This document shows, piece by piece, positions 580 to 53,472 of a DNA stretch of 64,000 nt. The DNA lies in assembly GCA_951406725.2 (NCBI GenBank), contig OX597825.1:44268001-44332000 (forward strand), written 5' to 3'. The DNA is from Octopus vulgaris (taxonomy: Eukaryota). The notes below the pieces were generated by a model. The model saw only the letters and a program-made list of their open reading frames with translations. It ran no database searches and was not told the origin of the DNA. Within the stretch, counting starts at the first letter, position 1; every line of letters starts with the position of its first letter. Position numbers and translations under genes: made by a program.

Positions 580-851
580 TATTTATATTGAGGGCATTAC
601 TATACATAAATGCCATACGCTAGGAGGGACTCTTAAAGTCAAAATCTACCAAAATAAATAAGCACATAGTATCGAATACGAGGGAATGCAACTCCCGAAG
701 CGAGCCCTTTAAAAACAGAATTCGGGCTCGCTTCGAGAGTTGCATTCCCTCATATTCGATACTATGTGCTTATTTATTTTGGTAGATTTTGACTTTAAGA
801 GTCCCTCCTAGCGTGTAGCATTTATGTGTAGTAATGCCCTCAATATAAATA
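580..851. repeat. Fold-back inverted repeat (128-bp arms, 16-nt loop), probably derived from a PLE terminal repeat
   Basis: 580-707 is the reverse complement of 724-851 with 5 transitions. It is followed by an AT-rich tail and (TA)n. Confidence 0.9.
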
Positions 852-1040
852 CATTATATTTAAGAGGAAAATTGATGGAGAATTCTCTTTATGAGGTTTT
901 CACGCTAACTACTTGATAAATTCTTATAAAGATTTTATCCTATTTTTAAATTGTATATATACATATGTATATATATATATATGCATATTTACACACACAC
1001 AAAATATATGTAAGTATATAAGCGTGTGTTGTAAATTTGT

Positions 1041-3530
1041 ATGTATCTCCTCGCTGGAATGACATCACTTGAACAGAGACAGACAGAGTCCTTGTTGGCT
1101 CTCACACGCAAGTCTTTCATGGAGCAAGCAGTGCTTCGGCCAACAAGAGGTGAGAATGTCTTGGACCTCTGTTTCACAAGCAACCCGATGCTCATCCACA
1201 ACATAATGGTAACACCTACAATTCTCTCAGATCACAACTTAGTAGAGGTAATGATATATGGTATGAGAGAGTTAGTTGAGACGCAGCCATTAGAAAATAC
1301 CACAGGCCTATCCAGTCTAAACTTCCATAAGGCAAACTGGAAGAAGATCAACGAAGAGATCCGAAAACATGACTGGAGTGACTTCATCACCACACAAGAC
1401 ACCAACACACATTTCCAACATTTCATGACAACAATACAGAACATATGCCATAGGTTTGTCCCGGAGAAAAAAGCCAGCGGGCATAGGAACGTTATTCCCA
1501 GAGACAGGAAAATACTTATGAGGCGAAGAGCTAAGCTCTCGAAGCAACTGAATGCACGGCAGAGAAACAATGAGGGACTCCACCTGAAGCTTTTTGAAAC
1601 GGAAACTGCACTCAAACTTTCCTATGAGAAGGAGAGGGCAGAGAGAGAAGCCAGGGCCATAGAGAATATTAAAACAAACCCTAAAGCCTTCTTTAAATTT
1701 GCGAAAGAAACCACCTCGGTACACTGCAAGATTGGCCCACTCTTTGATAAAAAGGGCTCTCTAACTGAGGACCCCCAAGGGATAAGTGAAATACTAAAGG
1801 AACAGTATAAAAGTGTGTTCACATCCCCTCTGGGGCACATGCAAATCACAAACCCAGAAGTTTTCTTTGATGCCACAACACTCCAAAACCAAACAACAAC
1901 CATCGACCACATAGACATAACAGAGAGGGATGTAATATCTGCCATAGAAGAAATGAGAATAAACTCAGCTGCTGGACCAGATGGATTCCCAGCAGTCCTC
2001 CTAAAAACATGCAGGCATGCCCTAGCGGGACCACTGAAGAAGCTCTTCAGTGGTTCCTTGGCTAACGGTAAACTGCCCAGGGCGCTAAAAGAAGGCACCA
2101 TATGCCCTATCCACAAAGGAGGGAGTAGAGCAGAGGCCAAAAACTACAGGCCAGTCTCCCTGACGTCACACATAAGTAAGGTCATGGAACGAATCATCAG
2201 AAAAAAACTGATCACGTTCCTCGAAGAAACTAACCGTCTCACTGACACACAGCATGGCTTTCGCCCAGGAAGAAGCTGCCTTACGCAGCTGTTACAACAC
2301 TACGACTGGGTACTGAAACAACTACTGGATCGCTCACAGGTGGATGTGGTATATCTCGACTTTGCGAAGGCCTTTGACAAAGTCGACCACGGAGTGATAT
2401 GTCACAAATTACTCAGACTCGGCATAACAGGAAAAGTAGGTGAGTGGATACATGACTTCCTGAAGGACAGAAGCCAGATGGTTGCAGCCAATGGAGCCCT
2501 CTCGGGAAAGACACCAATAGCAAGCGGGGTGCCACAGGGCACAGTCTTGGGACCCTTGCTGTTTTTGGTGGCGCTCTCTGACATGCCCTTGGTAGCACAA
2601 ACAACATCCCTCACTAGCTATGCTGATGACACAAAGGTAGCACAGGCAATCAAAAACCCAGCTGATGCTGACCTTTTACAACAAGATCTGGATGCCATAT
2701 ACAAATGGGCTGAAGACAACAACATGCAATTTAATGCTGGTAAATTTCAAGCCTTACAATATCAAGCTGTAAACACATATACATTACAACACAACTATAC
2801 TGGTCCAGGAGGGATCGAAATCCCAGTATCGAAATTAATACGGGACCTGGGGATAGACATGAGTGACGATGCATCTTTTTCTTCACACATCGCGAAGATG
2901 GCGACAATGTGCAGACGACTCACTGGCTGGATCCTGAGGACATTCCGGACAAGAGACTGCGAGACCATGTTGACACTATGGAGGACATTTGTCCTAAGCC
3001 GCCTGGACTACTGCTCCCAACTGTGGTCACCGCATAGTGTCAAACTAACCACAGAGCTTGAGACAATCCAAAGACATTTCACCAAGAGGATTTCCACCAT
3101 GAAAGAAAAGAACTATTGGGAGAGGCTTAGGGAACTCAATTTGTACTCCTTGGAACGAAGACGAGAGAGATATGCAGTGATATACATATGGAAAATCCTG
3201 GAGGGACTAGCACCAAATTTTGGAATTGAGAGCTGTTCCAATCCCCGTACAGGACGTCACTGTGTGGTGCCAAAGGTCCCGTCTTCCACATCCAGGGTAA
3301 GGAGCAGATACTGTAATAGCCTGGGGTTCAGGGGCCCTCAGCTGTTCAACAAACTGCCAAGAAAACTAAGAGATCTACATGATGCGGATGTGGACACTTT
3401 CAAAAAACATCTAGACAAGCTGCTTTCCGGGATCCCAGATGAACCCACTGCAAGGTACGAAGGTAACCTAAGGGCAGCAGCTACAAACTCTCTCTTAGAT
3501 CAGTGGCCAGCCACGGCAAACTGGACTTAG
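1041..3530 (+). CDS. CR1-clade LINE ORF2, 5'-truncated (APE C-terminus plus complete RT), uninterrupted 829 aa
   Basis: Motifs PTRGENVLDLCFT, SDHNLV, AAGPDGF, NYRPVSLTS, QHGFRPGRSC, YLDFAKAFDKVDH, GVPQGTVLGP, YADD, LDYCSQLWSP, LYSLERRRER. Confidence 0.95.
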   Translation: MYLLAGMTSLEQRQTESLLALTRKSFMEQAVLRPTRGENVLDLCFTSNPMLIHNIMVTPTILSDHNLVEVMIYGMRELVETQPLENTTGLSSLNFHKANWKKINEEIRKHDWSDFITTQDTNTHFQHFMTTIQNICHRFVPEKKASGHRNVIPRDRKILMRRRAKLSKQLNARQRNNEGLHLKLFETETALKLSYEKERAEREARAIENIKTNPKAFFKFAKETTSVHCKIGPLFDKKGSLTEDPQGISEILKEQYKSVFTSPLGHMQITNPEVFFDATTLQNQTTTIDHIDITERDVISAIEEMRINSAAGPDGFPAVLLKTCRHALAGPLKKLFSGSLANGKLPRALKEGTICPIHKGGSRAEAKNYRPVSLTSHISKVMERIIRKKLITFLEETNRLTDTQHGFRPGRSCLTQLLQHYDWVLKQLLDRSQVDVVYLDFAKAFDKVDHGVICHKLLRLGITGKVGEWIHDFLKDRSQMVAANGALSGKTPIASGVPQGTVLGPLLFLVALSDMPLVAQTTSLTSYADDTKVAQAIKNPADADLLQQDLDAIYKWAEDNNMQFNAGKFQALQYQAVNTYTLQHNYTGPGGIEIPVSKLIRDLGIDMSDDASFSSHIAKMATMCRRLTGWILRTFRTRDCETMLTLWRTFVLSRLDYCSQLWSPHSVKLTTELETIQRHFTKRISTMKEKNYWERLRELNLYSLERRRERYAVIYIWKILEGLAPNFGIESCSNPRTGRHCVVPKVPSSTSRVRSRYCNSLGFRGPQLFNKLPRKLRDLHDADVDTFKKHLDKLLSGIPDEPTARYEGNLRAAATNSLLDQWPATANWT

Positions 3531-3600
3531 AGAGGGTAGCAACAAGGGCGGTGCCCCAGCATGGCCTCAGCCGGATGGCTGAAACAAGTAAAAGAGTAAA
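1050..3600 (+). mobile_element. CR1-clade LINE including short 3' UTR and tail
   Basis: The ORF above, followed by the 3' end ggcggtgccccagcatggcctcagccggatggctgaaacaagtaaaagagtaaa. Confidence 0.92.
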
Positions 3601-4598
3601 TATCAGTGTGCATGCGAAGCTATAGACGATGTGTTCGGGCACATGTCCCTGTATGTGTGTGTGTAAAGGCATGTGTATATTTGTGTTTTTACACTAAGTC
3701 CTTTGCTACTCTAAAAATATTCACGTACCACTTCCCGCTGTTTATTGCATCCTCATCGACAAAATTTACATTTCTTTTCATATATAAGTGTGTGTGTGTG
3801 TGTGTGTGTGTGTGTGTGTGTGTGTGTGTGTGTGTGTGTGTGTATGTGTGTGTGTGCGTGCGCGCGCTGTTCTAAAATATTGGGTAAATACCGACCACCT
3901 TAACGTACATTTCACAAACACAGATACTGAGCGTAGTTTAGACAATCACATCAGTCCATTAGTTTAGTCTGGCACTTATTTTATTGAATTATATTTGTTG
4001 AGTCGCGAAATTAGGCTTTTTGCACTGCAACGGCTAAGCATGAAATTAGATTGGTGTATAGGTAAGCACATACAAAGATAAATACACACGCTTATATGTT
4101 GCATTACAAAATACCTATCACAGTATAGTATTCAACTCATGGTTATACGAAAAAAAAAAGTTTATACGAAGTGACACTTGCTCAAGGAACTGTGCAATGG
4201 AATCGGAACCACGTGGTTTTTAAATAAACTGATGTGTATACATCGGTTTATATGTTACGTTCAGCAACGATACCAAGACCGACTTTTGATCATCAATCAT
4301 ACATGTTTAAACTGCTAGTTAAGAGAAAACAGAAACAAAACACATTAACCGAGCTAAGATATTGTTATTTCAAAAAAGATTTTGTGTATGGGTGTGTTTA
4401 AAATATTACAGCTACATTGCTCAACGGTTTCAAGATTTAAAACGGAAGAAAAAAAATACAGGTAAGTTCTCAGTGCTTGACTACATTTACCTTATCGACA
4501 TCGAAAGGATGAAAAGGTAAAGTGTATTGCGATAATAAATATTTCACAAATATAACAAAAATATTTGTGCACCATGTTTACTAAAATGTTCCTTAGAT

Positions 4599-52835: not shown

Positions 52836-53008
52836 CACGCATATATATATATATATATATATATTTATATAAATAAACAAGGGCAAAAGAAAAACATTCT
52901 AATGCCAAATATGCCTAAAATACACAATATCGTCAATAACCATATAATTCATCACTATAAGCACACGTCTCGAAGTAAGCCGACAGAAATTTCTAAAAAA
53001 TTCCGTTA

Positions 53009-53069
53009 TTATCATATCGGCCCTGATTTCAGAGTCAATTCATAAGAATTTTCTCCTCGTCAGTGATAA
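53009..53069 (-). ncRNA. Type I hammerhead ribozyme motif (antisense arm)
   Basis: ttatca-CTGACGA-ggag..aattc-ttat-gaatt..ctct-GAAA-tc-agggcc-ga-TA-tgataa. Confidence 0.8.
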
Positions 53070-53182
53070 ATACGGTAAGAAATAAATGAAATACTTATAC
53101 CCATAGAAGAAACAAATTGTGCTCATGACTTAGTATTTGATTCTACCATGGGTATAAGTATTTCATATATTTCTTACCGTAT

Positions 53183-53243
53183 TTATCACTGACGAAGAGA
53201 AAATTCTTATGAATTAACTCTGAAATCAGGGCCGATATGATAA
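53183..53243 (+). ncRNA. Type I hammerhead ribozyme motif
   Basis: ttatca-CTGACGA-agag..aattc-ttat-gaatt..ctct-GAAA-tc-agggcc-ga-TA-tgataa. Predicted cleavage after 53237. Confidence 0.82.
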
Positions 53244-53472
53244 TAACGGAATTTTTTTAGAAATTTTTGTCGGCTTACTTCGAGAGACGTGCTTATAGTG
53301 ATGAATTATATGGTTATTGACGATTGTGTCTATTTTCGGCATATTTGGCATTAGAATGTTTTCTTTTACCCTTGTTTATAAGTTGTTTATAAATTTAACC
53401 TTTAAAGATATTTTTTATATGCTGGCCATTGATAGAATTTTTTTCGAAAATTTTTATTCTATATTAGATATA

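What the first reader, a model, noticed from the sequence alone, without database searches (positions are those of the whole stretch)
580..53460. Recurring architecture: TA-rich flank, inverted arm, loop, arm plus AT-rich tail, in six sequence-distinct copies
Seen: fold-backs at 580-851, 23605-23892, 39624-39705, 47751-48029, 48319-48644 and 52873-53379. They differ in sequence but all lie beside (TA)n, and most have an unpaired tail on the right. Three contain hammerheads, and two tails share ggccattgata. That is about one per 10 kb. Inference: a shared mechanism (cDNA snap-back during PLE-type integration at TA repeats) seeds the genome with long hairpins, a possible major source of dsRNA in a lineage known for heavy A-to-I editing, if the host is a coleoid.
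Basis: partly seen in the sequence, partly recalled or inferred. Interest (0 to 1): 0.72.

Follow-up and report, generated by a model that had tools for sequence, protein, structure and literature searches.

The report
Penelope retrotransposon hairpin insertion scars
Six DNA hairpins beside TA repeats are back-to-back, cut-off ends of six abundant Penelope-type jumping-element families that carry hammerhead-ribozyme motifs, likely made by copying the element's RNA from both sides of the cut; this layout is already published, and whether it feeds octopus RNA editing is untested.

Summary
All six fold-backs are real. Each is one copy of a separate high-copy family with a fixed 3' end at (TA)n-type repeats, variable 5' truncation and a type I hammerhead motif. 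Two (E2, E5) are 3' ends of protein-coding Penelope-like elements (PLEs) with Hydra-type endonuclease motifs; four are protein-free 475-593-bp tandem units (retrozyme-like). The inverted arm ends at a fixed internal site 77-212 nt short of the 3' end, which makes the unpaired tail. This architecture is published for PLEs, and this scan found it before on other DNA of this genome. Snap-back is disfavoured: the loop belongs to the tail-less arm in 31 of 76 hairpins, and 15 of 17 tail-less E2 copies have no partner nearby, so two independent primings are likelier. MITE is rejected. An evenly spaced 600-kb sample gives one such hairpin per 22-40 kb; TA-flanked fold-backs hold at most about a third of near-perfect local inverted matches (45 of 70 tiles from two stretches). 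No editing evidence was obtained: no genomic A-to-G skew in 221 copy sets, no usable RNA reads. Verdict: new members of a known kind; editing link open.

The parts
569..723 (-). E1 inverted, tail-less copy (arm plus 17-nt loop); outer end at family position -91
725..952 (+). E1 direct 5'-truncated copy of a 498-bp tandem unit; unpaired tail about 863-952; cut off just 3' of the family hammerhead
23470..23743 (-). E2 direct copy: 3' end of a protein-coding PLE; tail 23470-23604; hammerhead copy with a mutated core at 23722
23755..23892 (+). E2 inverted, tail-less copy ending at family position -136 against (TA)7; hammerhead with variant core CCGATGA at 23771, GAAA at 23803
39627..39690 (-). E3 inverted, tail-less copy against (TA)23; carries the loop
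39681..39807 (+). E3 direct copy of a 496-bp tandem unit; tail about 39706-39807, then (TA)18; hammerhead truncated away
47740..47969 (-). E4 inverted copy; the 165-nt 'loop' is contiguous family sequence of this arm and holds the 3' half of the hammerhead (GAAA at 47962)
47973..48128 (+). E4 direct copy of a 593-bp tandem unit; tail 48030-48128 with GGCCATTGATA, then (TA)14
48315..48503 (-). E5 inverted, tail-less copy ending at family position -212 against (TA)13; decayed hammerhead core at 48431
48525..48838 (+). E5 direct copy: 3' end of a PLE with C-terminal GIY-YIG endonuclease; hammerhead core 48535, GAAA 48599; tail 48645-48838, then (CA)n
52873..53116 (-). E6 inverted, tail-less copy against (TA)11; hammerhead core 53063
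53115..53472 (+). E6 direct copy of a 475-bp tandem unit; hammerhead core 53189, GAAA 53222; tail 53380-53472 with GGCCATTGATA

Best explanation
The six hairpins are truncated, head-to-head insertions of the 3' ends of six Penelope-like element families (two protein-coding, four protein-free tandem units), likely formed when the element's endonuclease nicks both strands of a TA repeat and its reverse transcriptase likely primes one cDNA from each end. Shown: family membership, two fixed ends per family, variable fold point, link of E2 and E5 to PLE coding sequence. Inferred: one cDNA starts at the family 3' end and the other at an internal site 77-212 nt upstream (hence the one-sided tail); both stop early and are joined at their 3' ends, often through a few shared bases; the protein-free units are likely moved in trans by Hydra-type PLEs. 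The hairpin is a by-product of insertion; if transcribed it is predicted to pair fully and to lock its own ribozyme.
For: Every hairpin has hundreds to thousands of genome candidates (474-4130 at first look, 40 scored each). In 151 tail-bearing loci, 98 have an adjacent inverted piece and 76 have its outer end within 20 nt of a family-fixed site, while the fold point varies. In the tail-only E2 search, unbiased for hairpins, 14 of 30 copies have such an arm and 12 end within 3 nt of -136. Of 30 E2 copies found with upstream sequence, 17 end at the internal site, 9 at the tail end, 4 elsewhere; 15 of the 17 have no inverted family sequence in the 336-1500 bases upstream, so the internal site works as a start of its own. 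The loop belongs to the tail-less arm in 31, the tail-bearing arm in 21, neither in 24 of 76 hairpins (25/12/19 of 56 without the hairpin-query set); in the window, 4 of 6 have the tail-less arm longer. L144 has no overlap between arms at all. Junction overlap >=2 nt in 35 of 53 insert-free junctions against 73 of 205 simulated blunt ones (p=8e-5). L261 is the same design at 3.4 kb, with RT (46% to an 816-aa open PLE frame, E 7e-61) and endonuclease in the loop. E5 runs into GIY-YIG remnants in 8 loci (one pair overlaps). Hammerhead cores are nearly invariant apart from position 7 in all six families (11-82 copies each). Published: inverted 5'-truncated copy, tail and (TA)n targeting (PMC8557442, PMC3846280); cleavage and extension of both strands and two RT start sites bounding the tail (PMC11167929).
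Against: Arms of one insertion share non-consensus bases 2-4 times more often than arms of different insertions (E2 0.019 vs 0.005, E6 0.027 vs 0.007, E5 0.014 vs 0.008), which self-copying also predicts (same donor RNA or later conversion would too). Central deletions in palindromes could move the loop to either arm and leave microhomology (recalled knowledge, not tested). Over all 76 junctions the overlap excess is weak (35 of 76 vs 73 of 226, p=0.04) and 14 have >=8 unassigned bases. Tails are 77-212 nt, not the 30-40 bp described. E1, E3, E4, E6 were not tied to a particular autonomous partner (no endonuclease hit in their loci). E4 data are thin (3 of 8 inverted pieces near the fixed site). 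Rfam and PDB searches gave no hammerhead and no RT hit; Pfam GIY-YIG hits are below cut-off. Loci are the best-scoring copies, not a random draw.
Confidence: 0.8

Rival explanations
1. Same PLE families, but the inverted arm is made by fold-back self-priming (cDNA snap-back; or self-priming on an antisense template as proposed in PMC3846280), later trimmed by deletion at the hairpin tip.
For: Arms of one insertion share private variants; 24 of 76 hairpins are nearly symmetric and junctions show microhomology; the internal stop site is TA-like and could anneal to the target.
Against: Loop in the tail-less arm in 31 of 76; tail-less copies without partner in 15 of 17; L144 with non-overlapping arms; two internal RT starts shown in vitro for another PLE (PMC11167929).
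Confidence: 0.15
2. Non-autonomous DNA transposons (MITEs, foldback elements) with terminal inverted repeats and TA target duplication.
For: Arms are long and TA-flanked.
Against: Fold point and arm length vary between copies, a tail lies outside one arm, 53 of 151 tail-bearing copies have no adjacent inverted piece, units occur head-to-tail; two families run into PLE coding sequence.
Confidence: 0.02
3. Assembly artefacts (chimeric fold-back reads).
For: Palindromes are a known long-read artefact (recalled).
Against: Arms differ by 5-25%; outer ends are family-fixed across chromosomes; short-read contigs of run X15 cross the fold junctions of E4 (47600-48009, 4 differences) and E5 (48443-48761, 1 difference), though X15 may be the same individual.
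Confidence: 0.01
4. The hairpins are selected, functional RNA elements (ribozyme switches or editing guides).
For: Hammerhead cores are conserved within families; inserts fold at -50 to -352 kcal/mol.
Against: Conservation is of the family, not of the locus; E1, E3 lack and E4 has half a hammerhead; where whole, 51 of 54, 81 of 91 and 71 of 73 hammerhead bases are predicted to pair with the other arm; cores are mutated in one arm of E2 and E5.
Confidence: 0.02

Closest known systems
Insertion units of endonuclease-positive Penelope-like elements (Craig et al. 2021, PMC8557442: passages and section 11 read; Arkhipova et al. 2013, PMC3846280: passages read)
   Same: 5' truncation, partial tandems, adjacent inverted 5'-truncated copy (head-to-head), one-sided tail, microsatellite targets, hammerhead in the terminal repeat, Asn-rich linker inserts.
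   Different: Tails here are 77-212 nt rather than 30-40 bp; most copies are so short that only a hairpin is left; Arkhipova 2013 explains head-to-head junctions by self-priming, while these data favour two primings.
Hydra clade of C-terminal EN+ PLEs (PMC8557442, section 11 read)
   Same: E2's endonuclease has CxCx5C upstream, CxxC and CxH around the conserved E and N, no CxxC inside the GIY-YIG core; (TA)n insertion; canonical-type hammerheads.
   Different: RWK and DKT motifs and phylogeny not tested; E5's linker motif is decayed; four families have no ORF.
Poseidon PLE of Anolis, PAc (Frangieh et al. 2024, PMC11167929: parts 1-2 of 4 read)
   Same: Both target strands cut and extended at AT-rich DNA; two RT start sites whose distance is the tail.
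   Different: There the start is not homologous to the target and lies in an AC-rich stem-loop in the ORF; here both sites are TA-like and lie in non-coding 3' sequence, and tails show no significant fold.
Metazoan non-LTR retrozymes (Cervera and de la Pena 2020, PMC7229834: passages; Li et al. 2026, 10.64898/2026.07.22.740005: part 1 of 5)
   Same: E1, E3, E4, E6: protein-free, low-GC (30-33%) head-to-tail units with one type I hammerhead each.
   Different: Units of 475-593 bp are longer than the 220-390 bp in the passages read; mostly truncated and with inverted arms; circular RNA and cleavage untested.
L1 twin priming (PMC2837659: search listing and start of abstract only; mechanism otherwise recalled)
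   Same: Second target strand primes a second cDNA internally, giving an inversion.
   Different: Here the second start is fixed and close to the 3' end, so the two cDNAs usually overlap and form a hairpin.
Palindromic Harbinger repeats of Xenopus and lizard Penelope as hyper-editing substrates (Porath et al. 2017, PMC5625713: passages)
   Same: A self-folding repeat needs no neighbour to form dsRNA; Penelope is already reported as massively edited in lizard; octopus has high genomic dsRNA potential.
   Different: Octopus sites were not assigned to repeat classes in that paper; editing of these hairpins is untested.

Membership tests
EN+ Penelope-like element | RT followed by C-terminal GIY-YIG endonuclease in the linked element | tested here: met
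   E2: RT and EN remnants contiguous with the hairpin end in L261; RT identity rests on 46% match to an 816-aa frame whose nearest Atlas clusters carry RVT_1/HTH_animal. E5: EN only.
EN+ Penelope-like element | RT and endonuclease in E1, E3, E4, E6 | tested here: not met
   Units of 475-593 bp, longest stop-free frame 55-83 aa; no EN hit in their loci. They work like PLE cargo; they are not autonomous PLEs.
EN+ Penelope-like element | 5' truncation, tandem repeat, adjacent inverted truncated copy | tested here: met
   tandem junctions seen for E1, E3, E4, E6, not for E2, E5.
EN+ Penelope-like element | One-sided 3' tail between two fixed ends | tested here: met
   Fixed ends in all six families, weakest for E4; 77-212 nt, longer than the 30-40 bp described.
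EN+ Penelope-like element | Type I hammerhead with short or palindromic stem III | tested here: met
   Motif, stems and core conservation in six families; not detected by Rfam; E2 core has C for U at position 4 in 73 of 82 copies.
EN+ Penelope-like element | Target-site duplication | tested here: inconclusive
   Both flanks are TA-type repeats.
Hydra clade | CxCx5C linker, CxxC/CxH around E and N, no CCHH | tested here: met
   Read by eye in E2-linked EN; partly in decayed E5 EN.
Hydra clade | RWK and DKT motifs; RT phylogeny | not tested
   No reference Hydra proteins fetched; supplementary alignments of PMC8557442 not read.
Non-LTR retrozyme | Protein-free tandem units with one type I hammerhead | tested here: met
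   E1, E3, E4, E6.
Non-LTR retrozyme | Self-cleavage and circular RNA | not testable with these tools
   Needs in vitro transcription, northern blot or raw RNA reads.
MITE / foldback DNA transposon | Inverted repeats at both termini, same structure in all copies | tested here: not met
   Variable fold point, external tail, copies without inverted arm.
ADAR hyper-edited repeat | Clustered A-to-G changes in RNA reads against matched DNA | not testable with these tools
   Only contigs of runs guessed to be RNA were offered.

The most novel reading that the evidence does not exclude
Two-ended priming by Hydra-type PLEs and their retrozyme-like passengers has seeded this 2.8-Gb genome with roughly 70,000-125,000 self-folding hairpins that supply a leading share of the long, near-perfect dsRNA behind octopus repeat hyper-editing, as palindromic Harbingers do in Xenopus.
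Probability: 0.25. Interest if true: 0.6.

Novelty: new member of a known kind. Interest (0 to 1): 0.3.

Why it matters
As it stands it annotates six repeat families and adds genomic support for the two-start-site model of PLE insertion, with numbers that disfavour snap-back. If the editing link held, it would name a concrete source of the unusually high dsRNA potential reported for octopus (PMC5625713) and of repeat-directed editing in coleoids (PMC9068888, passages), and it is directly testable by overlaying editing sites on these hairpins. The hairpins also matter for repeat annotation, where they can be mistaken for MITEs or miRNA precursors (one search gave sub-threshold miRNA matches to E1 and E6).

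Tried and rejected
Rfam: no hammerhead at E<=1; miRNA matches all below gathering score. Link between E2 and the neighbouring PLE remnant at 22120-23170: rejected, E2 sequence is absent from the other 29 loci of that family. Pfam: GIY-YIG only below cut-off, no RT hit for the 816-aa frame; PDB: nothing meaningful. Shared tail structure: no tail folds better than shuffles (z -1.4 to +1.4). Isolated hammerhead folding: only E6's is significant (z -3.5) and its minimum-energy fold is not the active three-way form; E2 and E5 z about 0. Expression: no RNA holder listed on record; contigs of three runs guessed to be RNA and one large run show the same change spectrum (A>G 24-32, T>C 22-26, G>A 15-19, C>T 12-19), so no editing can be read from them; a second read-laying on E1 gave no result, so E1's junction has no read support here. 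Fossil editing: 0 of 221 family-locus sets have A>G versus T>C skew at p<0.01, none of the six window copies; these are best-scoring copies, so heavily edited ones would be under-sampled. Whether the window lies in an intron was not determined. The host label 'octopus' comes from earlier scan notes, genome size (2.8 Gb) and recalled SINE sequence, not from a call. Four literature searches (listings only) showed no title tying octopus editing to PLE hairpins; supplements of PMC9068888, PMC5625713 and PMC8557442 were not read and may bear on this.
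Full report
Observation. Self-alignment confirms six fold-backs at the stated places, with arms of about 40 to 245 nt, and no similarity between them outside TA runs. I call them E1-E6 from left to right. GGCCATTGATA lies in the tails of E4 and E6 only. E2 is on the minus strand, so its tail is on the left; E1 and E4 have only TA-like left flanks; E5's tail ends at (CA)n. Rfam lists no hammerhead at E<=1.

Families. The window lies in a 2.8-Gb genome. Each hairpin has many relatives: 2717, 4130, 1937, 474, 1924 and 3691 first-look candidates for E1-E6, 40 scored each. 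In the loci fetched, each family has a sharp 3' end running into TA-type repeats and variable 5' truncation. E1, E3, E4 and E6 extend upstream into their own 3' end, giving head-to-tail units of 498, 496, 593 and 475 bp, 30-33% GC, longest stop-free frame 55-83 aa, with no endonuclease match in their loci. E2 and E5 instead run upstream through a long AT-rich 3' region into PLE coding sequence: GIY-YIG remnants for E2 in 6 of 30 upstream loci and for E5 in 8 of 30, two of which overlap. In L261 the E2 end is contiguous with EN (35% to an 816-aa open frame, E 4e-25) and RT (46%, E 7e-61). That frame has no Pfam or PDB match, but its nearest Atlas clusters (0.96) carry RVT_1 and HTH_animal. The EN motifs fit the Hydra clade as described in PMC8557442 section 11; an earlier scan note gave that lead, and I checked the motifs by eye, without phylogeny.

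Hammerheads. All six families have a type I motif: stem I, CUGANGA, stem II, GAAA, a short mostly palindromic stem III, and a UH site; cores are nearly invariant apart from position 7 in 11-82 copies per family, E4 being the most decayed. This is the minimal, dimer-type form described for metazoan PLEs (PMC4209133, part 1 of 4 read), which also mentions pairs on opposite strands 100-700 bp apart. In the window the motif is whole in E2, E5 and E6, half in E4, absent in E1 and E3. Where whole, 51 of 54, 81 of 91 and 71 of 73 of its bases are predicted to pair with the other arm.

Geometry and mechanism. Of 151 tail-bearing loci (two duplicates dropped; eight loci had no tail), 98 have an adjacent inverted piece and 76 have its outer end within 20 nt of a family-fixed site: -91, -136, -91, about -100, -212, -77 for E1-E6. 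The fold point varies. Several queries contained the hairpin, so the hairpin fraction is best read from the E2 tail-only search: 14 of 30. Simple snap-back predicts that the loop always belongs to the tail-bearing arm; it belongs to the tail-less arm in 31, the tail-bearing arm in 21 and neither in 24 of 76. Among 30 E2 copies found with upstream sequence, 17 end at -136 without tail, 9 carry the tail, 4 end elsewhere; only 2 of the 17 have an inverted partner in view. E5 shows the same two ends. Insert-free junctions overlap by 2 nt or more in 35 of 53 against 73 of 205 blunt simulations (p=8e-5); over all junctions the excess is weak (p=0.04). Both fixed sites are TA-like. I infer two primings, one from each end of the cut TA tract, at two fixed RNA positions. 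This matches the in vitro behaviour of an Anolis PLE, which cuts and extends both strands and starts at two sites bounding the tail (PMC11167929). Against: arms of one insertion share private variants 2-4 times more often than unrelated arms, and deletion at a palindrome tip could mimic loop asymmetry (recalled); PMC3846280 favours self-priming. I give two primings about 0.8 and snap-back about 0.15.

Not MITEs, not artefacts. Variable fold points, external tails, 53 of 151 copies without an adjacent inverted piece and tandem units rule out terminal-inverted-repeat elements. Contigs of run X15 cross the junctions of E4 and E5 with 4 and 1 differences; X15 may be the assembly's own sample.

Density and dsRNA potential. 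In 60 evenly spaced 10-kb stretches I found 68 fold-backs with arms >=35 nt and loops <=400 nt after masking simple repeats; 27 touch TA on one side against 9.8% of random controls, and 8 have a hammerhead motif nearby against 2.4% (a stricter descriptor found 3 of the 27). Fifteen of the 27 have the full arm-at-TA, tail-then-TA layout (counted by eye). That is one per 22-40 kb, about 70,000-125,000 genome-wide by extrapolation; the same pipeline found 5 of the 6 window hairpins. With a measure modelled on PMC5625713 (50-bp tiles, >95% over 40 bp, within 2 kb), 200 of 7140 tiles score: 82 simple repeats, 70 TA-flanked fold-backs, 34 distant pairs, 14 other fold-backs. The TA-flanked share is 0.34 (bootstrap 0.13-0.49), 0.18 (0.07-0.31) at >85%, and 45 of the 70 tiles come from two stretches, one of them a complex rearrangement not shown to be a PLE. 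It is an upper bound for PLE hairpins.

Editing. No usable RNA reads were available. Prompted by earlier scan notes on genomic A-to-G fossils, I tested 221 family-locus sets: none has A>G versus T>C skew at p<0.01, nor do the six window copies. Published passages say that octopus has a very high hyper-editing rate and dsRNA potential, that lizard Penelope is massively edited, and that one class of squid editing targets repeats. The link is plausible and untested.

Comparison and verdict. The layout (5' truncation, tandem, adjacent inverted copy, one-sided tail, TA targets, hammerheads) is described for EN+ PLEs, and protein-free hammerhead tandems are described as retrozymes derived from PLEs. 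This scan has reported the same architecture on other DNA of this genome. What this case adds is six family descriptions, long tails, counts that favour two primings, and a first density estimate. Novelty: new members of a known kind. Interest 0.3. Most novel reading not excluded: these hairpins are a leading source of octopus hyper-editing substrate, probability 0.25, interest 0.6 if true.

Noticed in passing
window 21600-23460, minus strand: 5'-truncated PLE of another family (thumb, Asn-rich linker, CxCx5C, GIY-YIG, frameshifted) directly behind E2's tail in the same TA run; 150 matches scored of 16,984 candidates.
   Followed up: partly
L266:1104-3551 minus (G000:C1): 816-aa stop-free PLE frame with RT and C-terminal endonuclease; a near-identical 766-aa frame in L267. 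Candidate recently active element.
   Followed up: partly
L261 (G000:C12:41840500-41847500): 3.4-kb version of the E2 hairpin: 974-bp arms at 97.7%, RT and EN in the loop, tail on one arm only.
   Followed up: yes
E2 family: Hammerhead core has C instead of U at position 4 in 73 of 82 copies, and an extra base on each side of stem II; some copies extend about 22 nt beyond the usual 3' end.
   Followed up: partly
tails of E1, E4, E6: E1 and E6 ends match at 79% over 53 nt (E 1e-5); E4 and E6 share GGCCATTGATA: possibly a common signal for the mobilising enzyme.
   Followed up: partly
L002:1256-1500, L006:2124-2304, L153; window 47740-48838: Hairpins of different families are stacked at the same TA tracts.
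   Followed up: no
window 1035-3530 +: 831-aa stop-free LINE frame with RVT_1 (E 2e-30) just after E1.
   Followed up: no
window 48936-52271 minus: Frameshifted LINE with endonuclease and RT domains between E5 and E6; contigs up to 2.4 kb from runs guessed to be RNA match it as a family.
   Followed up: no
window 36361-36897 + and 30087-30470 -: Mariner transposase remnant and a fragment that looks Helitron-like (recalled, no Pfam hit).
   Followed up: no
L268:2098-4763: Young (98-99%) 359-bp tandem unit with a 647-bp inverted copy against (TA)n; no hammerhead found by my descriptor.
   Followed up: partly
600-kb sample L268-L327: 310 tracts of (TA)10 or longer; simple repeats alone give 82 of 200 near-perfect inverted tile matches, so an unfiltered dsRNA-potential measure is inflated by microsatellites.
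   Followed up: partly
window 18336-19066: Tandem array of a 184-bp repeat that looks like an octopus SINE (label recalled).
   Followed up: no
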